Positions 2,306 through 24,561 of a DNA stretch of 32,000 nucleotides are shown piece by piece. This stretch comes from Ktedonobacterales bacterium. GTDB lineage: Bacteria; Chloroflexota; Ktedonobacteria; Ktedonobacterales; JADMIN01. A program made the translations under genes and the position numbers. The notes beneath the pieces were generated by a model that did no database searches, had not been told where the DNA came from, and saw only the letters and a list, made by a program, of their open reading frames with translations. Location of the stretch: assembly GCA_030167145.1 (NCBI GenBank), contig CP126532.1, positions 2,370,001 to 2,402,000 on the forward strand. Reading direction: 5' to 3'. Positions within the stretch are counted from its first letter, which is position 1; the number at the start of each line of letters is the position of its first letter.

Positions 2306-5300
2306 TTACGCCTGCTGCTCGCGCACCAGACGCCGCAGGACGGCTTGCAGAATGCCGCCGTTGCGGTAGTAGTTGATGTCAATCGGGCTGTCGAGGCGGG
2401 CGATGGCGGTGAACTCGAAGGTTGAGCCATCTTCGCGGTGGACGCGGACGGTCATCTCCTGGCGCGGCTTTAGCTCGCCGGTGATGCCCACAATGTCGTA
2501 GGTCTCGCGGCCCGTCAGGCCCAAGCTTTCGCGGCTGGCGCCCGGCTGGAACTGAAGCGGCAGGATGCCCATGCCGACGAGATTGCTGCGGTGGATACGC
2601 TCGTAGCTTTCGGCCAGCGTGGCGCGGATGCCCAGCAGCAGCGGGCCTTTCGCTGCCCAGTCGCGCGAGCTGCCCGATCCATATTCTTTGCCAGCGATGA
2701 CCAGCAGCGGTGTGCCCGCCGCCTGATACTTCATCGAGGCGTCGTAGATGGTCATCTCGTCGCCATCTGGCAGATAGGCGGTGTAGTAGCCCTCTTTATT
2801 CGGTACGAGCATGTTGCGCAGGCGGATGTTGGCAAAGGTGCCGCGCACCATCACCTCGTGGTTGCCACGCCGCGCGCCGTAGCTGTTGAAGTCGCGGGCG
2901 GTGACGCCGTGGTCAATCAGATACTTGCCGGCAGGGCTGGTGGTGGGGATGGAGCCAGCGGGCGAGATGTGGTCGGTGGTGATCGAGTCGCCGACCGAGA
3001 CCAGCACCCGCGCGCCGGTGATGTCGCTGAGCGGCGCAGGCTCCGGGGCAAGACCGTCGAAGAACGGCGGCTTGCGAACGTAGGTGGAGTCGGCATCCCA
3101 CGAGAAGAGGCCGCTCCCCGCCTCTGGCAGCGGCAGCGCGCGCCAGTGTTCGTCGCCGTCGAAGACGTGTCCGTACTCCTCGGTGAAGATTTCGGGCTTG
3201 ACGACGCGGCTCAACGTCTCCTGCACCTCTTGCGGGGTGGGCCAGATGTCCTTCAGGTAGACTGGCTGGCCGTTGGGGTCTTCGCCAAGCGGATCGTGGG
3301 TCAGATCTGTATCCACTGAGCCAGCCAGCGCGTAGGCGACGACGAGCGGCGGCGAGGCGAGATAGCTGGCGCGCACCTGCGGATGGATGCGCCCCTCGAA
3401 GTTGCGGTTGCCGCTGAGCACCGCCGCGACGACGAGGTCGTTGTCCTTCACGGCGTCGGCCACCGGCTCTGGCAAGGGGCCGCTATTGCCGATGCAGTTA
3501 TGCACGGCGACAGTGCCCGCCACGAAGGCATGCGGGCCGTCCACCGCCAGATCGTAGACCGCGCGCTTTCCAGCTTCGCGGCGCTCCATCACCTGAAGCC
3601 CGAAGGTTGGCAGTTCGAGCGCGTCTTTGGCGACGCAGTAGCGTTTGGCGGGGTCTGTCTCGTCTCGTGAGCGCAGGGGCGCGAACCACTCGCGCACGCC
3701 AAGCTGGGTGAAGAGTTCGGCGGGCGAGGGAAAGCCGCAACTCTCGCGGTGCAGCGGCTGGAACTTGCGCGCGGTGGCCTGCGGGAGCCGTGAGAAGCGG
3801 TCGCTGCCTTCCAGTAGCGCATAGTGTGGCGAGACGACTGGCTCGCGCTCCATCAGTTCCACTGCCGCTTGCTGGCGTGCTTTGGCAAAGGACAATTCGC
3901 GGTTCTCCTGGTGCAATTCGTCCAGGCGGGCTGACATCCACAGGCGCTGCTGATGGATGCGGTCTATCGTGCGCCAGTAGACCGCCGCCGCGCTGGCGCG
4001 CAGCGCTTTGTCCACACAGTAGCGGAAGCCGACGCGCTCGACGAAGGAGAGGCCGTCGGGCAATTCCAGGCGCACCTCAATGCGCTCAATACCATCCTGT
4101 GCGGCGGGATACGAGGAGAGCGCGCGGCGGGTGGGATACTCATAGATGTTCGCCTTCTCGGTTTCCACACCACAGCGAGCTAGCAGACGGAGCAGATCAT
4201 TCATGACACGCTTGAGACTGTCCACGTGTTCGGGGAGGGCGCTCTGCGAATAGGCGGGTGGTTCGAGCGTCGCGTCGTCTTCGCCTTCACCCCAGCGATG
4301 TAGTACGGGGGTGTGGCCGTCTGCGCCGAAGAGGCCGCCGAGGAACTCGCGCACGACCGCAACGGGACAGGTATCATCCAGCACGAATGCGGGAAGCGTG
4401 GGAGCTTGTTGAATGCGCCGCCCGACTCGCACACCAGGCAGCGTGCGGATGGCATCGGTCAACGTCTTGGGCAGCACGATGGTCCACTTGCGCTCGTCGT
4501 AGCGCGTCGCGGCGGGGCGGCTGCCGGTAATCAATTCAATGTCGTTGAGCGCCATCTCGCGGTCTACAGCCTGGCCAACATGCACGCGGCCCTGGCCGGC
4601 GAGACTGATCGAGCCGTCGCTGAGCAAATGGCCGAGCAGGCGCGCAAATGCGAGCGTTCGCAGGCGTTCGTAGGGGGTATCCATCGTGAAGAGCAGGTCG
4701 CCAACGGGCAGCGCCCAGCCTGTTTCGTCGTCGCCTGGCTCATCCAGCGGCGCTTCGAGGCCGACGACCACACGATCTTCGCCCAGCGCCAGTTCATCGG
4801 CGCGCACCCAGCGTCCATCGGTAGTGAGGATCTGGTGATCGGGGGTGCAGTCCAGCGTGCGGCCGTCTTGCAAGACGAGCGAGATGCAGTCGCGCACGCC
4901 CTGGGCCATCGCTTCGGCTTGCCGCGCGATGCTCAGCGTGCCGTCGCCGGAGGGGGCGAACAGCGTGGCCCCACCCATGGCGGGCATCGCTTCGATGGGG
5001 CGCGTCGTGCCGTTGGCGAGCAGGACCGGAGTACCCTCGGCGATGCAGGTGGTACAGCCGTAGCCGACGGTATGGAAACGCAGCGCCTCTAAGAATGGGG
5101 TGAGGCCAGCGTTGTCGAGATAGTCGGTGACGGCGCGGGAACCGGGGGCGAGGCTGGTTTTGACGGCGGGGGAGACACGCAGGCCGCGCTCGACGGCGTG
5201 CTTGGCCAGCAGGCCAGCCGCGAGCATAACAGATGGATTGGAGGTGTTGGTGCAACTGGTGATGGCGGCGATGGCGACCGCGCCGTGGTTTAGGGGCACC

Positions 5301-6607
5301 TCTTCGCCATCCATCGCGACGATGGTCGTGCCGTTGGTCTTGACGTGCGCGCCCTCTTCCACGTCGTCGCTGATCTTGGCATCGAAGCGGTCGGCATAGG
5401 CGGTGCGGAAGTTCTGCTTGACGCCGCCCAGCGCCACGCGGTCCTGTGGGCGGCGCGGACCGGCGAGGCTCGGCTCGATGGTGGCGAGGTCGAGTTGCAG
5501 CAGTTCGTTGAAGGTGGGCACGGGGGTGTCATCGGTGCGGAAGAGGCCCTGCTCTTTGGTGTAGCGCTCGACGAGATCCACCAGATCGGCTGGGCGGCCA
5601 GTGAGGCGCAGGTAGCGCAGGGTCTCGGCGTCCACGGGGAAGAGGGTGGCGGTCGCGCCGAACTCTGGCGACATGTTGGAGATGGTGGCGCGGTCGGCGA
5701 GGCTGAGCGAGCTGAGTCCCACGCCCGCGAATTCGACGAAGCGCCCGACGACGCCATGCCTGCGGAGCATCTGGGTGACGGCGAGCACGAGGTCAGTGGC
5801 GGTCGCGCCTTCGGGCAGCGCGCCGGAGAGCTGGATGCCGACGACTTCGGGGGTGAGCAGGTAGAGCGGCTGGCCGAGCAGCACGGCTTCGGCTTCGATG
5901 CCACCGACGCCCCAGCCCAGGATGCCCAGGCCGTTGATCATGGTGGTGTGGGAGTCGGTGCCGACGAGGGTGTCGGGGAAGGCGTAGCCGTCGCGCGATT
6001 GGATGACTTTGCCCAGATATTCAAGGTTGACCTGATGCACGATGCCGGTGCCGGGGGGGACGACACTGAAATCCTTAAACGCTTGCTGCGCCCAGCGCAG
6101 CAGCGCATAGCGTTCGCCGTTGCGCTCGTACTCGCGCTGGACGTTGGCGCCGAAGGCGAGCGTGGAGCCGAACATGTCCACCTGCACCGAGTGGTCAATG
6201 ACGAGGTCGGCGGGGACCAGTGGATTGACGCGGGTGGGGTCGCCGCCCATTGCCTTGACGGCGTCGCGCATGGCGGCGAGGTCTACGACGGCGGGGACGC
6301 CGGTGAAGTCCTGCAGGATGACGCGGGCGGGCATGAAGGGCAGTTCTTCGGGGTCGCCGGGGGCGGGCTGGACACCGGGACGCCAGCGCGCGAGGGCGAG
6401 CACGTCAGCCTGACTGACGAGGCCCGGTTCGAGGTCGCTGTTGCGCAGCGCGTTCTCGACGAGCACGCGCAGGGTGAAGGGCAGTTGCGCCAGCGGCGTG
6501 ACGTTGGCGCTGGTGAGGGCATCCAGCCGGTAATACGTGAGGGGTCCGGCGCTCGTGGAGAGCGTCGCCCGCGCGCCAAAGGCGTTTGCGGTGTTCTGTG
6601 AAGCCAT
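2306..6607 (-). CDS. acnA: Aconitate hydratase A, intein-containing precursor (1433 aa; about 916 aa after predicted splicing)
   Basis: ATG at 6605-6607. Aconitase signatures: VILQDFTGVPAVVDLAAMR, VGTDSHTTMINGLG, ITSCTNTSNP (first Fe-S Cys), GYGCTT...CIGNSGPL (second and third Cys), and the swivel domain GKEYGSGSSRDWAAKG. The exteins are 5048..6607 (N) and 2309..3496 (C). Confidence 0.92.
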   Translation of the reverse strand: MASQNTANAFGARATLSTSAGPLTYYRLDALTSANVTPLAQLPFTLRVLVENALRNSDLEPGLVSQADVLALARWRPGVQPAPGDPEELPFMPARVILQDFTGVPAVVDLAAMRDAVKAMGGDPTRVNPLVPADLVIDHSVQVDMFGSTLAFGANVQREYERNGERYALLRWAQQAFKDFSVVPPGTGIVHQVNLEYLGKVIQSRDGYAFPDTLVGTDSHTTMINGLGILGWGVGGIEAEAVLLGQPLYLLTPEVVGIQLSGALPEGATATDLVLAVTQMLRRHGVVGRFVEFAGVGLSSLSLADRATISNMSPEFGATATLFPVDAETLRYLRLTGRPADLVDLVERYTKEQGLFRTDDTPVPTFNELLQLDLATIEPSLAGPRRPQDRVALGGVKQNFRTAYADRFDAKISDDVEEGAHVKTNGTTIVAMDGEEVPLNHGAVAIAAITSCTNTSNPSVMLAAGLLAKHAVERGLRVSPAVKTSLAPGSRAVTDYLDNAGLTPFLEALRFHTVGYGCTTCIAEGTPVLLANGTTRPIEAMPAMGGATLFAPSGDGTLSIARQAEAMAQGVRDCISLVLQDGRTLDCTPDHQILTTDGRWVRADELALGEDRVVVGLEAPLDEPGDDETGWALPVGDLLFTMDTPYERLRTLAFARLLGHLLSDGSISLAGQGRVHVGQAVDREMALNDIELITGSRPAATRYDERKWTIVLPKTLTDAIRTLPGVRVGRRIQQAPTLPAFVLDDTCPVAVVREFLGGLFGADGHTPVLHRWGEGEDDATLEPPAYSQSALPEHVDSLKRVMNDLLRLLARCGVETEKANIYEYPTRRALSSYPAAQDGIERIEVRLELPDGLSFVERVGFRYCVDKALRASAAAVYWRTIDRIHQQRLWMSARLDELHQENRELSFAKARQQAAVELMEREPVVSPHYALLEGSDRFSRLPQATARKFQPLHRESCGFPSPAELFTQLGVREWFAPLRSRDETDPAKRYCVAKDALELPTFGLQVMERREAGKRAVYDLAVDGPHAFVAGTVAVHNCIGNSGPLPEPVADAVKDNDLVVAAVLSGNRNFEGRIHPQVRASYLASPPLVVAYALAGSVDTDLTHDPLGEDPNGQPVYLKDIWPTPQEVQETLSRVVKPEIFTEEYGHVFDGDEHWRALPLPEAGSGLFSWDADSTYVRKPPFFDGLAPEPAPLSDITGARVLVSVGDSITTDHISPAGSIPTTSPAGKYLIDHGVTARDFNSYGARRGNHEVMVRGTFANIRLRNMLVPNKEGYYTAYLPDGDEMTIYDASMKYQAAGTPLLVIAGKEYGSGSSRDWAAKGPLLLGIRATLAESYERIHRSNLVGMGILPLQFQPGASRESLGLTGRETYDIVGITGELKPRQEMTVRVHREDGSTFEFTAIARLDSPIDINYYRNGGILQAVLRRLVREQQA
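3497..5047 (-). mobile_element. Class-1 intein with LAGLIDADG homing-endonuclease domain (517 aa, residues 521-1037 of the acnA ORF)
   Basis: Cys1 is in CIAEGTPVLLANG (codon 5045-5047). Block B is CTPDHQILT. LAGLIDADG motifs: LLGHLLSDGS (about 4607-4639) and FLGGLFGADG (about 4313-4345). The C-terminal block is VYDLAVDGPHAFVAGTVAVHN (Asn codon 3497-3499), followed by +1 Cys (3494-3496). Deleting it recreates the conserved GCTTCIGNSGPL. Confidence 0.88.
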
Positions 6608-15131: not shown

Positions 15132-16445
15132 GCTTCATCGAATGCGGCGCGGAAACCCCGGCCTTCAGGGCTGGGGAGGAAGCGCCGCACTACTTTCGTC
15201 CTAGTATACCACACCTTCACACGCTGTATGCTAGGCTGCAAACATGAAGCAGAAACGCGCCTACCGCTATCGCTGCTACCCTACCCGCGCCCAAGCCGCG
15301 GTGCTAGCGCGGACGTTTGGCTGCGCGCGCTTCGTCTACAACTGGGCCCTGCGGCTGCGCATCGCTGCCTACGCTCAGCGGGGCGAACGCGTCAGCTATG
15401 CCGACACCTCGGCGGCGCTCACGCTGTTGAAACAACAGCCGGAGACTGTGTGGCTGAATGAAGTGTCCAGCGTGCCGACACAACAGACGTTGCGCCACCT
15501 CGACCGCGCGTTCCGCAACTTCTACGAAGGCCGCACCCAGTACCCTAGCTTCCACACAAAACACGGTCCGCAGGCGGCGGAATACACGACGTCCGCGTTC
15601 CGCTGTGATGCGCGGGCGCGCACCCTGACGCTGGCCAAGATGGACTCCCCGCTGCATATCCACTGGTCGCGCCCCTTGCCCGACGGCACGACCCCCACCA
15701 CCGTCACCCTCAGCCGCGACACTGCCGGACGCTACTTCGTGAGTATCCTGCTGGAAGCGGAGATTGCCCCGCTGCCGCAGGTTGCCGCGCAAGTGGGCAT
15801 AGACCTGGGCTTGCATGACCTGGTGGTACTGAATAGTGGTGAGAAGGTGGGCAATCCGCGTTTCTTCCAGCAGGATGAACAGCGGTTGGCCAAAGCGCAG
15901 CGGCGTCACGCCAAGAAGCAACGCGACTCGAAGAACCGTGAGAAAGCGCGCGTGAAGGTGGCGCGCATCCCTGCCCGCATTGCCGACCGCCGTCGCGATT
16001 TCCTGCATCAGCTCTCGACTCACATTATCCGTGAGAACCAAACGATCTGTGTCGAGAGCTTGCGCGTGAAGCAGATGGCGCAGCATCCCACCCTGGCCAA
16101 AGCCATCTCCGATGTGGGCTGGGGTGAGTTGGTGCGTCAGGTAGAGTACAAAGCCGCCTGGTATGGGCGGACCCTGGTCCGCATAGACCAGTGGTATCCT
16201 AGCAGCAAGCGGTGTCATGCGTGCGGGCATGTGCTAGATGACCTTTCGCTGGCTACGCGTCAGTGGACCTGCCCCGAATGCGGGACGGTCCATGACCGCG
16301 ACGTGAACGCCGCACAGAATATTTTGGCCGTGGGACTCACGGTGGCAGCCTGTGGAGAGACGGTAAGACCAGCAAAGGCTTCGGCCCGCGTTGGCGCGGC
16401 TCAGCGAAGCAGGAATCCCCTGGCTTGAGCCATGGGGAGGGTCAA
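15132..16445 (+). mobile_element. IS200/IS605-family element carrying only tnpB (IS1341-like, no tnpA)
   Basis: Same-strand subterminal imperfect hairpins have similar sequence. LE is ggaaaCCCCGGCCttcaGGGCTGGGGagg (15156-15176). RE is ggaatCCCCTGGCttgaGCCATGGGGagg (16417-16437), about 22/32 identical to LE. TTAC (15128-15131) flanks the proposed left end and TCAA (16442-16445) ends the right end, as in IS608-type elements. Exact boundaries are inferred. Confidence 0.6.
15244..16428 (+). CDS. tnpB: TnpB (IS605 OrfB family RNA-guided RuvC nuclease)
   Basis: Typical N-terminus: RAYRYRCYPTRAQAAVLARTFGCARFVYNWAL. RuvC-I is VGIDLGL and RuvC-II is ICVESL. Zinc finger: CHACGH...CPECG. RuvC-III is DRDVNAAQNIL. 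The characteristic C-terminus is ACGETVRP...SRNP. All catalytic acidic residues are present. Confidence 0.9.
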   Translation: MKQKRAYRYRCYPTRAQAAVLARTFGCARFVYNWALRLRIAAYAQRGERVSYADTSAALTLLKQQPETVWLNEVSSVPTQQTLRHLDRAFRNFYEGRTQYPSFHTKHGPQAAEYTTSAFRCDARARTLTLAKMDSPLHIHWSRPLPDGTTPTTVTLSRDTAGRYFVSILLEAEIAPLPQVAAQVGIDLGLHDLVVLNSGEKVGNPRFFQQDEQRLAKAQRRHAKKQRDSKNREKARVKVARIPARIADRRRDFLHQLSTHIIRENQTICVESLRVKQMAQHPTLAKAISDVGWGELVRQVEYKAAWYGRTLVRIDQWYPSSKRCHACGHVLDDLSLATRQWTCPECGTVHDRDVNAAQNILAVGLTVAACGETVRPAKASARVGAAQRSRNPLA

Positions 16446-16497: not shown

Positions 16498-17103
16498 ATG
16501 GCGGATGAGCGGGCGCAACGGACGGCGGATGAACCGCGCCGCTGCGAGTGGGCGACGAGCGCGCTGGGGATTCGCTATCACGATGAGGAATGGGGTGTGC
16601 CGCTGCATGATGACCGGCGGCTCTTCGAGTTCATCGTGTTGGAGGGGGCGCAGGCGGGTCTAAGCTGGGAGACGATTCTACGGAAGCGGGAGCACTACCG
16701 CGCGGTGTTCGATGACTTCGATGTGGCGGCGGTGGCGGCGTATGACGAACGGAAAGTGGCGGCGCTGCTGGCGGATGCGGGGATCGTTCGCAATCGCGCC
16801 AAGATCGCGGCGGCGATCCACAATGCGCGGGCGGTGCAGGCGATTCAGAGCGAGTTCGGCAGCTTCGATGCGTATCTCTGGCGCTTCGTGGGTGGGCAGC
16901 CGCACGTCAACGCCTGGCGGACGCTAGCCGAGATTCCGGCCAGCACAGCGGAATCCGACGCGATGAGCCGCGACCTGAAGCGGCGTGGATTTTCGTTCGT
17001 CGGCTCGACGATCTGCTACGCTTTGATGCAGGCGACGGGGATGGTGAACGATCATGTGGTGGCGTGCTTCCGCTATGCGGGGGCAGCACGGAAAGACAAT
17101 TGA
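16498..17103 (+). CDS. tag: DNA-3-methyladenine glycosylase I
   Basis: RBS gggaggg precedes ATG 16498. Tag signatures: RCEW...YHDEEWGVP, FEFIVLEGAQAGLSWETIL, IVRNRAKI, FVGSTICYALMQATGMVNDHVVACFRY. Confidence 0.9.
   Translation: MADERAQRTADEPRRCEWATSALGIRYHDEEWGVPLHDDRRLFEFIVLEGAQAGLSWETILRKREHYRAVFDDFDVAAVAAYDERKVAALLADAGIVRNRAKIAAAIHNARAVQAIQSEFGSFDAYLWRFVGGQPHVNAWRTLAEIPASTAESDAMSRDLKRRGFSFVGSTICYALMQATGMVNDHVVACFRYAGAARKDN
17029..17077 (+). repeat. Direct repeat copy 1 (49 bp, inside the 3' end of tag)
   Basis: caggcgacggggatggtgaacgatcatgtggtggcgtgcttccgctatg is identical to 18231-18279. The next about 12 nt are still about 8/12 similar between the two copies. Confidence 0.95.
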
Positions 17104-17109
17104 CGTGCG

Positions 17110-18129
17110 CTATTCGATTCCCGCGAGCAGCTTCGCGATTTGCTCAGGGGATGGCAATTCGCCTTGCAGCGCGGCGGGCGGCGAGGTGACGATATGGTAT
17201 GTTGCTACCCCGATGGGTTTGTTCGATTCCTTTAGAGCGTATTCTACAATGGTCTTGTCCTTATCTTTGCAGAGAATGATGCCGATAGATGGACTCTCTC
17301 CGGCAATCCGGGCTTTGTCATCTAGCAGCGCCAGATAGAACTGCATCTTGCCAACATACTCTGGTAGGAACTCGCCGATCTTGAGTTCCAGCGCGACCAG
17401 GCATTTCAGACGCCGGTGAAATAGCAGCAGGTCAATAAAATATTCCTTGTCGCCGACTTCGAGGCGATACTGGCTGCCGACCAGGGTAAACGCGCCACCC
17501 ATTTCACGCAGGAAGCTCTCGACATTTGCCAGCAACGCCTGCTCCAATTGTCGCTCGGTATGCTCGTCGGCCAGTTCCAGAAAGTCGAAGGTGTATTCAT
17601 CTTTCACCGTGAGCTTCGCTTGCTGGTGGATGTGATCAGGCAATGTTTGCTCGAAATTGGTCTGGTTGAGTAATGTTTTTTGATAGGTTTGGTTTTCGAT
17701 TTGAAGGATTAGTATGCTTTTAGTCCAGCCGAATTTTCGCGCCATGCGAAGATAAAACTCGCGTTCCAGCATGTCGCGGCACCGCTCCATGACGACGACG
17801 TTGTGGCTCCAACTAACTTCTCGCACCAGTAGCGCGAGTTGTTCCTGCTGGGTGTAAAGCTCATAAAATCGCTTCATACGCCACAGGTTGGTAGCCGAGA
17901 AGCCTGATATGCCAACCAGGTCAGCTTGCAAATCTCTTGCCAATGTTTCAACAATGGAGCCACCCCATGTACCTACAGCCAACCGCTCCACAATCATTCT
18001 GCCAATGTCCCAATAGAGCGAGATAAGCTCTCTGTTCACAGCTTTCAGTGCCGCATATTGAGCAGAGCGTATGCGCTCTTTAATTGCTTGGAGAAGCATA
18101 GGATAGTCGCTGTGTGCTGGTTCACTCAT
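17110..18129 (-). CDS. PD-(D/E)XK nuclease family protein (DUF1016 / YhcG-like)
   Basis: MSEPAHSDYPMLLQAIKERIRSAQYAALKAVNRELISLYWDIGRMIV resembles YhcG-family N-termini. The nuclease core is YFIDLLLFHRRLKCLVALELKIGEF (D...E-x-K), followed by GKMQFYLALLDD. Start at ATG 18127-18129. The listed ORF start at 18441 runs through the repeat and ridA. GC is visibly lower than in the flanks. Confidence 0.75.
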   Translation of the reverse strand: MSEPAHSDYPMLLQAIKERIRSAQYAALKAVNRELISLYWDIGRMIVERLAVGTWGGSIVETLARDLQADLVGISGFSATNLWRMKRFYELYTQQEQLALLVREVSWSHNVVVMERCRDMLEREFYLRMARKFGWTKSILILQIENQTYQKTLLNQTNFEQTLPDHIHQQAKLTVKDEYTFDFLELADEHTERQLEQALLANVESFLREMGGAFTLVGSQYRLEVGDKEYFIDLLLFHRRLKCLVALELKIGEFLPEYVGKMQFYLALLDDKARIAGESPSIGIILCKDKDKTIVEYALKESNKPIGVATYHIVTSPPAALQGELPSPEQIAKLLAGIE

Positions 18130-18230
18130 GGAGCGGCACCACTTCTTTGGATTCCCCCACCATTGGCGGGGGAAATAGAACGCGGGCATCTGTTGCTTGG
18201 CTATTTCAGTATATCTCCATATCTTCTTTT

Positions 18231-18279
18231 CAGGCGACGGGGATGGTGAACGATCATGTGGTGGCGTGCTTCCGCTATG
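18231..18279 (+). repeat. Direct repeat copy 2 (49 bp)
   Basis: Identical to 17029-17077 and flanks the far side of the DUF1016 gene. Confidence 0.95.
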
Positions 18280-18299
18280 TGGAGGTAGCAGAGCGATGA
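18231..18299 (+). pseudogene. Orphan 3' fragment of tag (encodes ...QATGMVNDHVVACFRYVEVAER*)
   Basis: It reads in the tag frame and ends at TGA 18297-18299, 15 nt before the convergent ridA stop. There is no upstream tag body. This is probably the original tag terminus displaced by the insertion. Confidence 0.6.
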
Positions 18300-18313
18300 A
18301 AGGCGACCATGTA

Positions 18314-18706
18314 TCAGCGGTCACTTGTGGCCAGGGCGATGAGGTCCATAACAATGAGCGCCCCAGGTTTGGCGAGATTGGAGACTTCAACCGTGGTGCG
18401 GGCCGGTTTATGCGTGCCGAAGATCTCTTCGTAGATTGCATTCATCGGCGCAAAGTCTTCCATATGTTTGAGATAGACGCAGACCTGGACGACCTGCGAC
18501 AGATCGCTGCCCGCCGCATTGAGAACTTCTCGCAGGTTACGCAAGACCTGCCGTGTTTGCTGTTCCACGCCCTCAACGAGAGTATCAGTAGCGGGATCAA
18601 CCCCCGCATGGCCGGAACAGAAGACGAAGCCATTGGCGCGTATGGCCTGTGAGTACGGGCCAAAGGGTTGTTGCGCCGCACTTGTGGAGATCGGTTGTAG
18701 CACCAT
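18314..18706 (-). CDS. ridA: RidA/YjgF/TdcF family reactive-intermediate deaminase
   Basis: Family pattern: PFGPYSQAIRANGFVFCSGHAGVDPAT...QTRQVLRNLREVLNAAGSDLSQVVQVCVYLKHMEDFAPMNAIYEEIF...PARTTVEVSNL. ATG 18704-18706 lies 8 nt after AGGAGG. The listed TTG at 18712 is less likely. Confidence 0.85.
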   Translation of the reverse strand: MVLQPISTSAAQQPFGPYSQAIRANGFVFCSGHAGVDPATDTLVEGVEQQTRQVLRNLREVLNAAGSDLSQVVQVCVYLKHMEDFAPMNAIYEEIFGTHKPARTTVEVSNLAKPGALIVMDLIALATSDR

Positions 18707-18869
18707 TTTCAAGGCCTCCTATACTCATCATCGGTCGTCGTCCACTCAAGAATCTGGTGTTTGGTTTCCCTGGCGAGGTAGCGCGCGGGCAGGCAATATG
18801 ATGCAGGCAATGTGATGGCCTGATAGAGCATATGACACTCCACCAGGCCAAAGACTATGCGCAATGTGG

Positions 18870-20801
18870 TTATGGTTCGACGATGTTGAACATCAGATTG
18901 AAGGTTTCGAGCAGGCCCAGGAGTTGGGTGAACCGGCTCTTGTCGCCGTCAATGGTGATGCGCCCATCGGCAATCGCTTTGTCGAAGGTGGTCTGCTCCA
19001 GCGAGATAGCGTCGAGGGTCGCTTTGGTCAGGGTGATCGTCGCGACGGCCTTGGGGTCGTGTACATTCTTGCGGTAGGTTAGGGCGCCATTGCGCAGGGT
19101 GAGAGCGTAGGTCTCGTTGAGGTCGGTGAAGTTCCAGTTGAGCACGAAGTCGCCGAGCAGCGCGGCTTTCTCGCCGTTCATCCGGATGCCCATGTAGTCG
19201 AAATACAGGTTAATGGGCATAGCTGTGATGGTGTCGGGGGTGACCGTCGTCACCACGCTTGGGCCGGTGTAGAGGCCGTTGCGCAGCTCGAAGGCGGCGG
19301 TGAGATAGAGGCCGCGCCACGTGCCATTCTCGGACTGATAGCCAAGCTGCTCGTGCGCATCGGCAAGTAGCTCGCGTGCGGTCTGATTCTTGGGGTTGGC
19401 AAAGACCAGATGGTTGAGCAGTTGCGCCACCCAGCGATACTCGCCGCGCTGGAACGCCTCGCGCGCCTGGGCAAGCACCTGATCAGCCCCGCCCATCGCC
19501 GCGACGTAGTGTTTGCCAGCCTCGACCGGCGGCAGCGGATTCAAATTGGCGGGATTGCCATCGTAGAAACCGAGATAGCGTTGGTAGACGGCGCGCACGT
19601 TGTGGCTGATCGAACCGTAGTAGCCGCGGCAGTACCAGCGCCGCTCCAGATTGGGCGGCAGCGTGGTGAGTGTTTCGGCAATCTCCATTGGGGTGTAGCC
19701 GTGGTTGATCAGACGCAGGGTCTGGTCGTGGAGGTACTGATACATGTCGCGCTGATCAGAAAGGAAGGTCGTGACGTTCTCCGTGCCCCAGGTGGGCCAG
19801 TGGTGCGAGGCGAACAGCACGTCAGTACGGCTGGCGAAAAGTTCGATGGCCTCGGTCAGATAGCCCGCCCAGACCTTAGGGTCGCGCACCTCGGCGCCAC
19901 GCAGGGTGAGCAGGTTGTGCAGGTTATGCGTCGCATTCTCGGCGGCGCAGAGGGCGCGGAACTGTGGGAAGTAGAAGTTCATCTCAGCGGGGGCTTCGGT
20001 GCCCGGCGTGAGCTGAAATTCGATCTCGACGCCGTCAATGGTGCGTGTAGTATGCGACTCGGTGATCACGTCGGTCGGGGCAATCAAGGTGATGGTGCCG
20101 GTCGAAGTTGCTTTGCCCAGCCCAAGGTCCACTTGCCCGCGCTCGCCCGTGGGCAGGAAGACTCCGTACTGATATTGGGCGCGGCGGGCCATCGCGTTGC
20201 CCGCGAAGACATTCTCCGATATCACATGTTCCATGAAGCCCACAGGCGCGTAGATCTTGACCTTGCCAGCCTTGGCGTCATCCTCGGAGATCACACCTTT
20301 CACGCCACCATAGTGGTCGCCGTGGCTGTGCGTATGGATGACGGCGACGACCGGCTTACGACCTCGGTGCTGGACGTAGAGATCCATGCCAGCGGCGGCG
20401 CACTCAGTGGAGATCAGCGGGTCAATGACGATCAGGCCAGTGTCGCCTTCGATGATCGTCATGTTGGAGATGTCGAAGCCACGAAGCTGGTAGATGCGGT
20501 CCGTTACCTGGAACAGGCCAGCGATGCGATTGATCTGCGCCTGCCGCCACAGGCTGGGGTGGACAGTAGCGGCAGCCGTCTCAGCAGCCTCGAAGGCGTA
20601 AGCCGCGAAGTCAAAGACGGCTCTGCCGTCCGCGTTAGTAATAGCGTCGGTGGCTGGCCCAGCGATCAGGCCGCGCCGCGCATCATCGAAGTCGCGCGTA
20701 TCCTGAAACGGCAGATTCCGCAGGGCAGTAGCGTTCGCGGTCCGTGTCACTTCGGTTGCGTCTTTCGACGCGGCGGCGCGGGCCTGGCTCTTCGTCGTCA
20801 C
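18870..20801 (-). CDS. MBL-fold alkyl/aryl-sulfatase (SdsA1/YjcS-like) with a C-terminal SCP2-like domain
   Basis: Metallo-beta-lactamase motif: VIHTHSHGDHYGG. The length (643 aa), the middle dimerisation region and the C-terminal lipid-binding-like region fit the alkyl-sulfatase family. GTG start at 20801 has ggaagg 8 nt upstream. Confidence 0.8.
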   Translation of the reverse strand: MTTKSQARAAASKDATEVTRTANATALRNLPFQDTRDFDDARRGLIAGPATDAITNADGRAVFDFAAYAFEAAETAAATVHPSLWRQAQINRIAGLFQVTDRIYQLRGFDISNMTIIEGDTGLIVIDPLISTECAAAGMDLYVQHRGRKPVVAVIHTHSHGDHYGGVKGVISEDDAKAGKVKIYAPVGFMEHVISENVFAGNAMARRAQYQYGVFLPTGERGQVDLGLGKATSTGTITLIAPTDVITESHTTRTIDGVEIEFQLTPGTEAPAEMNFYFPQFRALCAAENATHNLHNLLTLRGAEVRDPKVWAGYLTEAIELFASRTDVLFASHHWPTWGTENVTTFLSDQRDMYQYLHDQTLRLINHGYTPMEIAETLTTLPPNLERRWYCRGYYGSISHNVRAVYQRYLGFYDGNPANLNPLPPVEAGKHYVAAMGGADQVLAQAREAFQRGEYRWVAQLLNHLVFANPKNQTARELLADAHEQLGYQSENGTWRGLYLTAAFELRNGLYTGPSVVTTVTPDTITAMPINLYFDYMGIRMNGEKAALLGDFVLNWNFTDLNETYALTLRNGALTYRKNVHDPKAVATITLTKATLDAISLEQTTFDKAIADGRITIDGDKSRFTQLLGLLETFNLMFNIVEP

Positions 20802-21033
20802 TGGTTGTACCTTCCATTGTTGGTCGCGTGACGCATAGCGTCACGCGCTCGTGCCTGGGCATGGCAGCCGCAACCCTGCGTCATCTTCGCGCGAGCGGCA
20901 AGCGGCATTAGTCCAGGTGGGTATGCCTGGGAGATACGGTGTGTGCAAGATATGTTCCTCAGCAGCGGGCACAAGCGCAGACCGACGCCACAAGGGGATG
21001 CGGCTAGATTGCAGTGAGGATAGGGACTCTACG

Positions 21034-21844: not shown

Positions 21845-23140
21845 ATGGCCACGAAACTCGCGGGCAGCGTGCGGTTTACGCGGGCGCTGCGCCACCGTCC
21901 GTTCGCGTTGCTGTGGATTGGGCAGACGATCTCGGCGGTGGGCGATGGCGCGTTTCTCATCGCGCTGCCGTGGACGGTGCTGATACTGACGCATTCGGCA
22001 ACGGCGATGGGGCTGGTGTCCATTGCCGGGATGCTGCCGCGTGTGGCATTTCTGCTGGTGGGCGGCGTCGCGGCTGACCGTTTCTCGCGGCGGCGCATCC
22101 TGCTCTACTCGGATGCCGGGCGCGCGATGGCGGTGCTGGGGGTGGCAGCGCTGGCGCTGATGCACACGCTACGTTTGTGGCATCTCGTCGGGCTGGGGCT
22201 GCTATTCGGCATCGCCGATGGCTTCTTCATGCCGGCGTACAATGCAATTCCGCCGCTGCTGGTGCCGGCGGACGATTTGCCCTCGGCTAATGCGCTCTCA
22301 AGCCTGGGACGGCAGATGAGCTTCCTCGTTGGCCCGGCGCTAGGCGCGTTCTTCATCGCCGTGACGAATGTGCAGGGGGCGTTTCTTTTCGATGCGGCGA
22401 CCTTCGTGCTTTCGGCGCTCTGCCTGGTCGCGCTGCGGATGCCCAAGCCGGGGGAGGCCGCCGCGTCTCCCTCTATGGTGGCGAGTGAGGGCGAGAGTGA
22501 GCGAGCACGTAAAAGAGGTATCGCAGGGGCGCTGGCAGACATCCGCGAGGGGCTGGGCTATGTGACGCGCTCGACCTGGCTCTGGCTGACGATTGCCATC
22601 GCGGCGTTCGGCAACGCCTGCTGGTCGGGGTCGCTGTTCGTTTCCGCGCCGAAACTGATCGCGGATACCTTTCACGGTGGCGTGTGGCTGCTGGGGCTGC
22701 TGCAAACGTTGATGGCGGTCGGCTCGATTGTAGCGACGCTGGCGGTGGGGAATATGCGCAAATTGCGGCATCGTGGCATCCTGGCCTATGGCGGCCTGTG
22801 CATCTCGTGTGTGTCGTTGATTGCGCTGGGTCTGCCTATTCCCGCTGCCGCCGCGCCGGTGCTGCTGGGGGTCGCGGGCGCGGGCATCGGTATCGGTCTG
22901 GGCATTTTCGATCCCATCTGGAGCACGACGCTGCAAGAGCTAGTGCCTACCGACAAGCTGGGCCGCGTGAGCAGCATAGACTGGCTTGGCTCGCTGGTGA
23001 TGACGCCGGTGGGGCTGGCGCTGGGTGGTGTGCTGACGGACCATATCGGGCCGTCGCTGGTCTTCATCGGCGCGGGGCTGATCAATCTGGCGCTGGCGCT
23101 CGGCGCGCTCACGGCGCGGGGCATCCGCGAACTGGATTGA
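21845..23140 (+). CDS. MFS transporter (EntS/MFS_3-like)
   Basis: About 12 hydrophobic segments. The N-terminus RFTRALRHRPFALLWIGQTISAVGDG and the loop motif VGGVAADRFSRRRIL are typical of this MFS subgroup. ATG 21845 follows gggag. The listed start at 21794 is less likely. Confidence 0.8.
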   Translation: MATKLAGSVRFTRALRHRPFALLWIGQTISAVGDGAFLIALPWTVLILTHSATAMGLVSIAGMLPRVAFLLVGGVAADRFSRRRILLYSDAGRAMAVLGVAALALMHTLRLWHLVGLGLLFGIADGFFMPAYNAIPPLLVPADDLPSANALSSLGRQMSFLVGPALGAFFIAVTNVQGAFLFDAATFVLSALCLVALRMPKPGEAAASPSMVASEGESERARKRGIAGALADIREGLGYVTRSTWLWLTIAIAAFGNACWSGSLFVSAPKLIADTFHGGVWLLGLLQTLMAVGSIVATLAVGNMRKLRHRGILAYGGLCISCVSLIALGLPIPAAAAPVLLGVAGAGIGIGLGIFDPIWSTTLQELVPTDKLGRVSSIDWLGSLVMTPVGLALGGVLTDHIGPSLVFIGAGLINLALALGALTARGIRELD

Positions 23141-23251
23141 TAGAGGCGCTCTGATGTGCTAGGCTAAATCGGACCAAAGCGAATATGTGAGATGGAGACA
23201 TGGTTCATCTTGAACCTGCCCGCGATACGGTTGAATGGGTGGAACTGAGCT

Positions 23252-23767
23252 ACGCACGTCATCACGCGCAAACGGCTTAATGAGTTCGCCGCTCAGCATC
23301 CATATGCATCGCCCGCGCTCAAGCATTGGTACATACAGATGAAGTCCGCATCTTTCGATACTTTCGCCGAGTTGCGCATGGTCCTTCCGAGTGCGGATCA
23401 GGTGGGAAGGTTAACGGTCTTCAACCTTGGCGGCAACACCACACGTCTCGTCGCCGCAATTCACTACAACCGGCAAAAGGTCTACATACGAGCTATTTTA
23501 ACGCATGAAGAATACGACAAAGGGAATGGAAGGGGTAAACCAATGCCTACAAGTGAACTCGAACGTATCGAGCAGGTATGGCCTGACCTAGCTAATTTGC
23601 TATTTGTCCCGCATACAGACAGTGACTATCAACAGCTTGTCGCGCTCCTCGATTCATTGATTGATCGCGTTGGTGAAGATGAGACAAACCCGCTCGCCTC
23701 GCTGATGGAAGTCCTTGGCGCGCTCATCGAGCGATACGAGGACGAGCATGTCCCCGAACTCACATAG
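23252..23767 (+). pseudogene. higB: Decayed higB-higA toxin-antitoxin module (HigB with ACG in place of ATG, fused in frame to a HigA N-terminal fragment lacking the HTH domain)
   Basis: The frame reads (T)HVITRKRLNEFAAQHP...WYIQMKSASFDTFAELR...VFNLGGNTTRLVAAIHYNRQKVYIRAILTHEEYDK. This matches HigB (E. coli MHLITQKAL...VFNVGGNELRVVAMV...CYIREVMTHKEYD). The codon aligned to Met1 is ACG (23252-23254), right after an in-frame TGA. From ATG 23543 the HigA-like N-domain (DYQQLVALLDSLID...NPLASLMEVLGALIERYE) ends at TAG 23765-23767 with no helix-turn-helix downstream. Confidence 0.6.
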
Positions 23768-23907
23768 CGCGGGCGCCTCTCGCCTGAGCGCATGACGCTG
23801 CCCGCATCGGAGATGGCGCCTGGTCCCTGGTATTCGATATCTCCCTGTGATCCCCACATCTGTTCGAGGGTTCACTTCTCGTAACCGCGCCTCATCCTGT
23901 GCGCGCC

Positions 23908-24561
23908 TCATCCTGTGCGCAGCATTGAGTAGACGCGCGGGCCACCACCACGCGCGGCGCTTTCGGCGACGACACGGAAGCCGTGGCGCTGATAGAAGGG
24001 AACGTTGGCCGGGTTCTCGGTTTCAAGGTAGCAGGGCAGCCCGGCGGCGTCTATGCGCGCCGACATCGGCGCAAGCAGCCGCGAGCCGATGCCCTGGCGC
24101 TGGCGGGAGGGTTCGACGCCGATCTGCGAGAGATACCAGTGCGGGCCGGGGGCGCAGCGTTCATGCAGTGACGCCGTGTGCGCGCCCACACGCGCCAGCC
24201 GCCGCAGCGCGGGCCACGGCATCTTCAGGGGTGCGGCGAACATGCCCGCGTGTGCCATACGCCAGGGCGTCATCGCCGTTCGCCCCGGCGGCAGCCAGAC
24301 GGCGACACCCTCAAATCCCTGTGTGGCGTAGACTTCACCGTAGAGCATAGCATAGCGGACGTTGAGGCTGATGAGATAGGGCAGGAGGCGTTGCCGCTGC
24401 TCGGCATTGGGGATGACGTAGCACATCAGCGGGTCGTACTGAAACGCGCGGGCGAGCAACGCCGCGACACGACTGGCGGCATCGGGCGCGCTGATACGCA
24501 GGAGATCGGGCGAATCGTGCATAGTGGCTCTCTCGCTGGGTGTGCTCAGGGTGTGGGGCAT
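23908..24561 (-). CDS. GNAT family N-acetyltransferase
   Basis: Acetyl-CoA binding block: IGVEPSRQRQGIGSRLLAPM...YLETENPANVPFYQRHGFRVV. The start could be ATG 24561 or ATG 24522 (the latter follows gagagag). Confidence 0.8.
   Translation of the reverse strand: MPHTLSTPSERATMHDSPDLLRISAPDAASRVAALLARAFQYDPLMCYVIPNAEQRQRLLPYLISLNVRYAMLYGEVYATQGFEGVAVWLPPGRTAMTPWRMAHAGMFAAPLKMPWPALRRLARVGAHTASLHERCAPGPHWYLSQIGVEPSRQRQGIGSRLLAPMSARIDAAGLPCYLETENPANVPFYQRHGFRVVAESAARGGGPRVYSMLRTG

What the first reader, a model, noticed from the sequence alone, without database searches (positions are those of the whole stretch)
17029..18299. Lower-GC 1.2 kb single-gene insertion (PD-(D/E)XK nuclease) flanked by a perfect 49-bp direct repeat that duplicates the 3' end of tag
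The 49-mer caggcgacggggatggtgaacgatcatgtggtggcgtgcttccgctatg occurs at 17029-17077, inside tag, and again at 18231-18279. Past the identical core both copies still encode similar but diverged Tag tails: CFRY-AGAARKDN* versus CFRY-VEVAER*, with about 8/12 nt identical. The second copy ends 15 nt from the convergent ridA stop, so it looks like the original tag terminus. The segment between the repeats carries only a DUF1016/YhcG-type PD-(D/E)XK nuclease gene. It is clearly more AT-rich than its flanks (stretches near 35% GC, roughly 45-50% overall by eye, versus about 65%). The attL/attR-like architecture, with an element-borne replacement for the target gene's 3' end, is typical of integrative elements. 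Yet no integrase or transposase is present. Either this is the remnant of a larger island, or the nuclease gene is a free-standing, homing-type mobile gene that targets tag. The second option has not, to my knowledge, been described for this family.
Basis: partly seen in the sequence, partly recalled or inferred. Interest (0 to 1): 0.75.

Follow-up and report, generated by a model that had tools for sequence, protein, structure and literature searches.

The report
One-gene nuclease cassette inserted beside tag
A single defence-type nuclease gene sits at the end of a DNA-repair gene, bracketed by a 49-bp duplication of that gene's end; this matches the transposase-free "insertion with long target duplication" already known for restriction genes, here seen in a nuclease family where it had not been reported.

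Summary
An exact 49-mer occurs at 17029-17077 and 18231-18279. Between the copies lies only an intact YhcG/DUF1016 PD-(D/E)XK nuclease gene (17110-18129, minus strand; PADLOC candidate PDC-S02). Its GC is 51% and its GC3 is 0.59, against 0.75-0.85 in host genes.

Relatives show a polymorphic site:
- an empty allele with ridA directly against tag (L172);
- an occupied allele (L082);
- an allele with a decayed nuclease remnant plus a DUF3995 gene (L174).

No integrase lies within 10 kb. The neighbouring TnpB IS is independent.

The same nuclease is 65-75% identical across many phyla. In six other genomes it is bracketed, alone, by direct repeats of unrelated sequence (26-168 nt). Several of these span a host gene's start or stop (polA, hsdM, a sugar transferase). 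Such repeats were found in 7 of 79 loci against 2 of 274 control intervals.

This matches "insertion with long target duplication" (Furuta et al. 2010) and does not fit an integrase island or tag-specific homing. The insertion is shared by lineages about 10-15% diverged, so it is not recent. The perfect 49-bp core therefore needs gene conversion or repeat-mediated re-integration.

Verdict: a new member of a known kind, of moderate interest.

The parts
16498..17103 (+). tag (DNA-3-methyladenine glycosylase I), intact. Its last 8 codons (AGAARKDN*) follow the left repeat copy.
   Evidence: Pfam Adenine_glyco, E 1e-81. The exact protein is on record on a 5.07-Mb Ktedonobacterales contig.
17029..17088 (+). 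Left copy of the direct repeat, inside tag. It is exact over 17029-17077 and has 3 mismatches over 17078-17088.
17104..17109 (.). 6-nt gap between the tag stop codon and the convergent nuclease stop codon.
   Evidence: Read directly from the sequence. The relative L082 has 17 nt in the same place.
17110..18129 (-). YhcG/DUF1016 PD-(D/E)XK nuclease gene of 339 aa, in the PADLOC candidate defence family PDC-S02. D233, E248 and K250 are intact.
   Evidence: Pfam PF17761 and PF06250. PADLOC PDC-S02, E 1e-140. Conservation of D233, E248 and K250. GC 0.509 and GC3 0.59.
18130..18230 (-). Non-coding leader upstream of the nuclease that travels with the gene. No sigma-70-like promoter was found. The gene lies downstream of ridA on the same strand.
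   Evidence: Homologous to the leader in allele L174 as far as about 18213. The promoter scan found 0 sites.
18231..18299 (+). Right copy of the repeat (exact over 18231-18279) plus the displaced, non-functional tag terminus VEVAER*.
   Evidence: It is collinear with the empty-site allele of relatives L171-L173.
18300..18313 (.). Remnant of the original tag-ridA intergenic spacer. It is 14 nt here and 30 nt in the empty allele.
   Evidence: Alignment A3.
18314..18712 (-). ridA, the native neighbour convergent with tag.
   Evidence: Pfam Ribonuc_L-PSP. Homologues at 91-94% identity occur in syntenic relatives.

Best explanation
A single-gene cassette was inserted at the convergent tag-ridA junction, at or just after the tag stop codon. 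The cassette comprises the nuclease ORF, about 100 nt of leader and a few nt of trailer. The event needed no dedicated transposase or integrase. It duplicated roughly the last 50-75 nt of tag. As a result tag keeps a complete 3' end, and a second, now useless copy of that end sits against ridA. This is the 'insertion with long target duplication' described for restriction and restriction-modification genes.

The cassette encodes an intact PD-(D/E)XK nuclease of a family that lives in defence islands. Its product is most likely a solitary restriction-like or defence nuclease, not a recombinase.

The insertion is old enough to be shared by several related lineages. The perfect 49-bp core in this genome was therefore most likely renewed later. 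Two routes are possible. One is gene conversion between the two copies. The other is excision and re-integration of the cassette through homologous (Campbell-type) recombination within the repeat. The diverged tails were left untouched.

Shown: the anatomy, the foreign composition, the empty and alternative alleles, and the recurrence of repeat-flanked single-gene insertions of the same family at other targets.

Inferred: the break-and-repair or template-switch chemistry, any role of the nuclease in its own insertion, and the conversion or re-integration step.
For: - The repeat is exact and non-random.
- The insert holds one gene only, with GC3 0.59 against 0.75-0.85 in host genes.
- No integrase or transposase lies in the segment or within 10 kb, apart from an unrelated TnpB.
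- Empty allele: L172 runs from ridA through the core into 19 further nt of tag.
- The occupied allele L082 and the decayed allele L174 are at the same site.
- The family is 65-75% identical across cyanobacteria, Chloroflexota, Gemmatimonadota, Planctomycetes, archaea and others. It sits in at least 34 different neighbourhoods among 80 species and occurs on 525 plasmid records.
- Seven of 79 nuclease loci have tight flanking direct repeats of unrelated sequence, against 2 of 274 displaced control intervals (p=5e-4).
- In each of the seven, one gene lies between the repeats. The repeats include the polA promoter plus 25 codons (L076, 130 nt at 97.7%), the hsdM 5' end (L052, 168 nt), a sugar-transferase 3' end (L066) and the tag 3' end here.
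- Furuta et al. report the same features: long variable repeats, no mobility gene, repeats spanning start or stop codons so that the target stays intact, and a solitary mcrA case (PMC2853133).
- Defence context: the PDC-S02 match, a position between cas3' and cas10d in 26-28 type I-D CRISPR loci, and a position next to hsdM in others.
Against: - A simple target duplication predicts uniform divergence of the two copies. Here the core is 49/49 but the next 18 nt are 11/18 (p=4e-5), so a second process has to be assumed.
- The right junction is seen only in this assembly. L082 ends before it, and L174 has a DUF3995 gene there instead. The repeat could therefore be younger than the nuclease insertion.
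- Most homologous loci (72 of 79) show no repeats.
- No empty site could be examined for the six other repeat-flanked loci.
- The mechanism of long target duplication is itself unknown.
- Defence activity is unproven. One PDC-S02 representative gave no protection against T4, T5 or T7.
Confidence: 0.55

Rival explanations
1. The repeat arose later than the nuclease insertion. The ancestor carried tag, nuclease, leader, another gene (such as DUF3995) and ridA, without a repeat. In this lineage, recombination with an empty allele from a close relative then replaced the segment between the leader and ridA with a second copy of the tag end. One crossover was homologous, in ridA. The other junction was illegitimate, at 18230/18231.
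For: - L174 has homologous nuclease and leader sequence but then DUF3995 and no second core.
- The core is perfect although the insertion is shared by lineages 10-15% diverged.
- The left tail resembles the functional tails of relatives more than the right tail does: 10, 9 and 7 of 18 against 7, 6 and 6 of 18.
Against: - It needs an ad hoc illegitimate junction exactly at the start of the core.
- It does not explain why six unrelated genomes also have the homologue alone between repeats that span gene ends.
- L171, from the same sample as the occupied L082, ends inside a ridA-proximal core copy. This fits a window-like repeat structure in that lineage too.
Confidence: 0.2
2. The segment is the remnant of a larger integrative island. 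The island integrated by a tyrosine or serine recombinase into the 3' end of tag (attL/attR), and later lost its integrase and cargo.
For: - The architecture is att-like, with an alternative tail for the target gene.
- Allele L174 shows that further cargo (DUF3995) can lie between the nuclease and ridA.
Against: - No integrase lies in the segment, within 10 kb, or in any related allele.
- Repeat-flanked homologues elsewhere are also single genes, with repeats of 26-168 nt and no shared core.
- There is no tRNA or other classical att target in the window.
Confidence: 0.1
3. The nuclease is a free-standing homing endonuclease. It cleaves the uninterrupted tag-ridA junction and is copied into it by double-strand-break repair.
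For: - The same site is occupied in at least three related lineages and empty in another.
- The catalytic D...ExK residues are intact.
- Sequence conservation across phyla is unusually high.
Against: - Homing by gene conversion leaves no target duplication.
- There is no tag association in 80 nuclease loci or 80 tag loci.
- Other copies sit at polA, hsdM, inside type I-D CRISPR operons, and elsewhere.
- The shared occupancy can be explained by common descent. The remnant in L174 shares the MSEP N-terminus that the other database homologues inspected lack.
Confidence: 0.08
4. The repeat is an assembly artefact. A chimeric join of occupied and empty alleles from a mixed population created it.
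For: - The source is a metagenome-derived 5.07-Mb contig.
- Both allele types exist in related populations.
Against: - There is no shared sequence at the 18230/18231 junction that could mislead an assembler.
- The left junction is independently assembled in L082, and the leader in L174.
- Analogous repeat structures occur in six independent assemblies.
Confidence: 0.04

Closest known systems
Insertion with long target duplication of restriction-modification and solitary restriction genes (Nobusato et al. 2000, as cited in Furuta, Abe and Kobayashi 2010, PMC2853133)
   Same: - A restriction-type nuclease gene is inserted with no linked mobility gene.
- It is flanked by a long direct repeat (more than 30 bp) of variable length.
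- The repeat corresponds to a single-copy sequence at an empty site in a relative.
- The repeat spans the stop or start codon, so the target gene stays intact.
- The composition is atypical.
- A solitary nuclease precedent exists (mcrA).
   Different: - The gene is a YhcG/DUF1016 (PDC-S02) nuclease with no methyltransferase and no proven restriction activity.
- The two copies show a perfect core next to strongly diverged tails.
- The site carries several alternative alleles in the clade.
- The host is a Ktedonobacterales (Chloroflexota) bacterium.
Integrative islands at the 3' ends of tRNA or protein genes (integrase-mediated attL/attR)
   Same: - A direct repeat duplicates the 3' end of the target gene, and the gene remains complete.
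- The far copy sits at the original position.
   Different: - There is no integrase.
- The insert is a single gene.
- Homologous cassettes elsewhere have repeats of different sequence and length, not one conserved att core.
Free-standing homing endonuclease genes (intron-less homing)
   Same: - A single nuclease gene behaves as a selfish insertion.
- Presence/absence polymorphism occurs at a fixed site among relatives.
- PD-(D/E)XK homing enzymes exist (stated from my own knowledge, e.g. I-Ssp6803I).
   Different: - Homing produces no target duplication.
- This family is not tied to one target.
- Cleavage specificity is unknown.
E. coli YhcG / Pfam DUF1016 family and PADLOC candidate PDC-S02
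   Same: - Both Pfam domains match above threshold.
- The PADLOC HMM matches over the full length.
- The family is known from plasmids, ICEs and phage WO (PMC4316617).
   Different: Nothing in the retrieved literature describes how the gene moves or reports flanking target duplications. Its function is still uncharacterised.

Membership tests
YhcG/DUF1016 PD-(D/E)XK nuclease (Pfam PF17761 + PF06250) | Both domains score above Pfam gathering thresholds | tested here: met
   DUF1016_N scores 140.1 bits (cut-off 32.8). YhcG_C scores 197.7 bits (cut-off 32.5).
YhcG/DUF1016 PD-(D/E)XK nuclease (Pfam PF17761 + PF06250) | Catalytic D...(D/E)xK residues present | tested here: met
   D233 and K250 are invariant, and E248 is at least 90% conserved, in alignments of 28 and 120 homologues.
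PADLOC candidate defence system PDC-S02 | Full-length match to the PDC-S02 HMMs | tested here: met
   PDLC04831, E 9.8e-141, residues 4-337.
PADLOC candidate defence system PDC-S02 | Protects against phage | not testable with these tools
   One representative gave no protection against T4, T5 or T7 in E. coli B (bioRxiv 10.1101/2024.09.26.614923). Defence-island context was seen here.
Insertion with long target duplication (Furuta et al. 2010) | The insert is flanked by direct repeats longer than 30 bp | tested here: met
   49 bp exact, 60 bp at 95%.
Insertion with long target duplication (Furuta et al. 2010) | The repeat aligns to a single-copy sequence at an empty site in a related genome | tested here: met
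   In L172, ridA, a 30-nt spacer, the tail, the core and tag are contiguous. Window 18722-18231 and 17080-17010 both map onto it. The evidence reaches only 19 nt beyond the core.
Insertion with long target duplication (Furuta et al. 2010) | No mobility gene (integrase, transposase, phage) in or beside the insert, and an insert under 20 kb | tested here: met
   The insert is 1.15 kb with one gene. The TnpB IS at 15139-16444 is separate: it is absent in L082, which does have the nuclease.
Insertion with long target duplication (Furuta et al. 2010) | The insert contains both R and M gene homologues (their screening criterion) | tested here: not met
   The insert is a solitary nuclease with no methyltransferase. 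The same paper accepts a solitary mcrA and orphan M genes as examples.
Integrase-mediated integrative element | A site-specific recombinase gene inside or adjacent to the element | tested here: not met
   None among the called genes within +/-10 kb, nor in alleles L082 and L171-L174.
Integrase-mediated integrative element | The same att core is reused at independent insertions of the element | tested here: not met
   Repeats at seven loci are unrelated in sequence and range from 26 to 168 nt.
Homing endonuclease gene | Insertion without target duplication, by gene conversion | tested here: not met
   A 49-60 bp duplication is present.
Homing endonuclease gene | The gene family is consistently linked to its cognate target gene | tested here: not met
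   0 of 80 nuclease loci have tag or ridA. 0 of 80 tag loci have the nuclease.
Homing endonuclease gene | The enzyme cleaves the empty site | not testable with these tools
   Requires biochemistry.
Cargo of the neighbouring IS200/IS605-type TnpB element | The gene lies within the IS ends, or the site matches the TnpB guide | tested here: not met
   The IS spans 15139-16444 by comparison with L082. The 20 nt flanking its right end have no second match in the window.

The most novel reading that the evidence does not exclude
The YhcG/PDC-S02 nuclease gene is an autonomous one-gene mobile element. [quoted passage not shown] The duplication then serves as a portable attachment site. The cassette can excise as a circle and re-integrate by homologous recombination into the same conserved gene end in related genomes. 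This would explain the perfect core next to diverged tails, the alternative alleles at tag-ridA, and the 65-75% identity of the gene across phyla.
Probability: 0.15. Interest if true: 0.8.

Novelty: new member of a known kind. Interest (0 to 1): 0.45.

Why it matters
How defence and restriction genes move without transposases is still mechanistically unexplained. "Long target duplication" has been known from genome comparison since 2000, but Furuta et al. (2010) reported no experimental evidence for the release and re-infection steps of their model.

This family offers compact, tractable examples: one 1-kb gene, sharp junctions, several independent insertions at identifiable gene ends, and, at this locus, empty, occupied and decayed alleles in related populations. 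That makes two questions testable. Does the nuclease drive its own insertion? Do the flanking repeats act as portable homology for re-integration?

It also adds mobility evidence for an uncharacterised, very widespread candidate defence gene (PDC-S02).

Tried and rejected
- An exact-protein look-up of the nuclease found nothing under the 339-aa start. The record holds a 359-aa over-extended call.
- The closest nuclease homologues (P0002, P0003, P0011; 71-75% identity) sit on short contigs without tag or ridA. They are not the L082 copy.
- The metagenome scan with Tag returned only relatives at 73% identity or less, with no ridA or nuclease synteny.
- The Ktedonobacterales Tag clade at 78-80% identity (L083) is not syntenic.
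- More distant RidA loci (L176, L177) were uninformative.
- Tag C-terminal tails vary too much across homologues for protein comparison alone to decide which tail is native.
- No tRNA and no Rfam family lies in or near the segment. No promoter-like site lies in the leader.
- TnpB involvement was rejected.
- The low GC of ridA was considered as a sign of co-acquisition and rejected, because a relative shares it.
- The AlphaFold model was poor for the nuclease domain (pLDDT below 50). Foldseek gave nothing with E below 0.4, only a weak Noc/ParB-like hint for the N-terminal domain. The PDB sequence search was empty.
- No common motif was seen by eye at the repeat boundaries of the seven loci.
- Permissive alignment of flanks beyond the repeats gave mostly spurious extensions.
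Full report
**Observation**

The 49-mer CAGGCGACGGGGATGGTGAACGATCATGTGGTGGCGTGCTTCCGCTATG occurs exactly twice, at 17029-17077 and 18231-18279. None was found in 100 shuffles. The repeat finder extends it to 60 nt at 95% identity.

The left copy lies inside tag (16498-17103; Adenine_glyco, E 1e-81). It is followed by the tail AGAARKDN*. The right copy is followed by VEVAER*, and its stop codon ends 14 nt before the stop of the convergent ridA (18314-18712).

Between the copies lies one gene on the minus strand, 17110-18129. It carries DUF1016_N and YhcG_C domains. All 120 retrieved homologues start at the same MS..P..Y..LL..IK.RIR.AQY motif. The start is therefore 18129, not the caller's 18189.

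The gene has GC 0.509 and GC3 0.59. Surrounding genes have GC3 0.75-0.85. ridA is also GC-poor (GC3 0.63), but it is equally so in a relative (L174, 0.62). That is a native trait.

**Source and relatives**

The window comes from a 5.07-Mb contig of a Ktedonobacterales bacterium. Four kinds of allele were recovered from related metagenomic contigs.

- L082 (Tag 89% aa identity). Its tag ends in AMVRQ*. After 17 nt comes the 3' end of a convergent nuclease gene (..GIE*), where the contig stops. This allele is occupied.
- L171, L172 and L173 (RidA 94%). Here ridA is followed by a 30-nt spacer, the tail AAVGR* and the core. L172 continues for 19 nt into tag sequence upstream of the core, identical to L082. 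It does not continue into the nuclease leader. Window 18722-18231 and 17080-17010 both map onto this one stretch. This allele is empty.
- L174 (RidA 91%). The order is tag (AAIGR*), then a heavily deleted nuclease remnant, then the homologous leader, then a DUF3995 gene, then ridA. There is no second core copy. The remnant shares the MSEP... N-terminus, which the other database homologues inspected lack, plus an internal piece.
- The window itself: an intact nuclease plus the direct repeat.

The site is therefore polymorphic in the clade. The right copy sits where the original tag terminus sat. The nuclease has been at this junction since before lineages diverged that now share 85-90% nt identity in tag and ridA with the window. 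Alternatively, it has been exchanged among them.

**What the gene is**

The protein matches the PADLOC candidate single-gene defence family PDC-S02 over its full length (E 1e-140). It keeps the PD-(D/E)XK residues D233, E248 and K250.

Its nearest database relatives are only 72-76% identical. Hundreds more lie at 65-73% in cyanobacteria, Gemmataceae, Cytophagia, Gemmatimonadota, Acidobacteriota, Deltaproteobacteria and Methanoperedens archaea. It also occurs on 525 plasmid records and in Wolbachia phage WO. Among 80 species genomes it occupies at least 34 unrelated neighbourhoods.

In 26-28 genomes, mostly Nostoc and its heterocystous relatives, it lies between cas3' and cas10d of type I-D CRISPR-Cas loci. 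In others it lies next to hsdM or to MntA/HepT toxin-antitoxin pairs.

Function is unproven. One PDC-S02 representative gave no protection against T4, T5 or T7 in a preprint. The PDB holds no sequence relative. The structure model was good only for the N-terminal helical domain, which weakly resembles Noc/ParB DNA-binding domains.

**The key comparative result**

I aligned the 500 nt upstream against the 500 nt downstream of the nuclease in 79 loci. Seven have significant, tightly placed direct repeats. Only 2 of 274 displaced control intervals do (Fisher p=5e-4).

In every case a single gene lies between the repeats, and the repeats are unrelated to one another:

| Locus | Organism | Repeat | What it covers |
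|---|---|---|---|
| L076 | Longimicrobiaceae | 130 nt, 97.7% | polA upstream region and first 25 codons |
| L052 | Gemmatimonadota | 168 nt, about 80% | from the end of a flavodoxin gene through the first 25 codons of hsdM |
| L066 | deltaproteobacterium | 88 nt | a sugar-transferase 3' end |
| L056 | cyanobacterium | 56 nt | not identified |
| L034 | Ca. Onstottus | 26 nt | a Ser/Thr-kinase G-loop |
| L072 | Omnitrophota | 26 nt | not identified |
| window | Ktedonobacterales | 49-60 nt | tag 3' end |

An intact copy of the target gene is kept at polA, hsdM and tag. None of these 80 loci contains tag or ridA, and none of 80 tag loci contains the nuclease.

**Interpretation**

The anatomy matches what Kobayashi's group called insertion with long target duplication. 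Its features are these. RM or solitary restriction genes, including a lone mcrA, are inserted without any mobility gene. They are flanked by long repeats of variable length. The repeats correspond to a single copy at the empty site. They often span a start or stop codon, so the target gene survives (PMC2853133).

The anatomy does not match an integrase island. There is no recombinase within 10 kb or in any allele, no shared att core, and no tRNA.

It does not match tag-specific homing either. Homing leaves no duplication, and the family is not tied to tag.

The adjacent TnpB-only IS (15139-16444) is independent. It is absent from L082, which nevertheless has the nuclease. The sequence flanking its right end has no second match in the window.

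**What is not explained by a simple one-step duplication**

Within the window the two copies are 49/49 identical, then 11/18, and then unalignable (p=4e-5). Both cores carry the same lineage-specific substitutions relative to L172, L174 and L082. The left tail is closer to the functional tails of relatives (10, 9 and 7 of 18) than the right tail is (7, 6 and 6 of 18).

Since the nuclease is shared with lineages 10-15% diverged, an unselected right copy should not be perfect. The most economical reading is an old duplication covering core plus tail. Its core was recently homogenised, either by gene conversion between the repeats or by excision and Campbell-type re-integration through the repeat.

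A serious rival is that the repeat was created later, by recombination between an occupied allele (like L174, with another gene to the right of the leader) and an empty allele. The data at hand cannot separate these, because no relative's contig crosses the right junction.

**Verdict**

The two proposed mechanisms, integrase remnant or tag-targeted homing, are not supported.

The finding is a new family-level example of a known but mechanistically unsolved mode of gene mobility. It has unusually informative alleles. Interest is moderate.

Noticed in passing
window 15139-16444: A TnpB-only IS200/IS605-type element (TnpB ORF 15244-16428) lies between metG and tag. It is absent from the relative L082, whose sequence joins ...GATGTTACGCT to 12 other nt and then to ACGGCGCAAA... 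This gives a clean empty site for the IS. No Rfam family covers its 3' end.
   Followed up: partly
window 18723-21031: The alkyl sulfatase gene and its flanks are missing in relatives L171-L173, where the His_Phos_1 gene lies 5 nt from the ridA region. This is a second insertion/deletion polymorphism right next to the nuclease site. No flanking repeats were looked for.
   Followed up: partly
L174 408-1210: This is an alternative allele of the same junction. It has an internally deleted remnant of the nuclease gene and its leader, followed by a DUF3995 membrane-protein gene. That gene's ORF runs 29 nt into the antisense of ridA. There is no second tag-end copy.
   Followed up: partly
L005, L008, L009, L012, L014, L040, L046 and about 20 more loci, nuclease at about 4001-5020: In 26-28 cyanobacterial genomes, mostly Nostoc and its heterocystous relatives, the nuclease homologue sits between cas3' and cas10d of type I-D CRISPR-Cas operons (TIGR03158 and TIGR03174 matches). 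Sometimes a MntA/HepT toxin-antitoxin pair is beside it.
   Followed up: partly
L004, L018, L020, L052: The homologue lies directly beside type I hsdM in a cyanobacterium, a Methanoperedens archaeon and a Gemmatimonadota bacterium. In L052 the hsdM 5' end is duplicated.
   Followed up: partly
window 2306-6607 (minus strand), insert at about 3490-5026: The aconitase ORF is 1433 aa long, with an extra segment of about 500 aa between the Aconitase domain halves. That segment gives a weak Intein_splicing match below the Pfam cut-off (32.5 against 35.8 bits). It may be an intein in a metabolic enzyme.
   Followed up: partly
window 23001-24000: This is a second GC dip (0.574). It coincides with a HigB-toxin gene called at about 23339-23767 in the source record.
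   Followed up: no
L045 and L079, about 2-2.7 kb upstream of the nuclease: These were the only two control intervals with strong flanking direct repeats (scores 129 and 75.5). L045 carries a cas6 gene, so a CRISPR array may be the cause. This was not examined.
   Followed up: no
L066 3300-4000: The sugar-transferase gene upstream of the nuclease contains two in-frame stop codons. The target gene copy there looks pseudogenised, or the MAG has errors.
   Followed up: no
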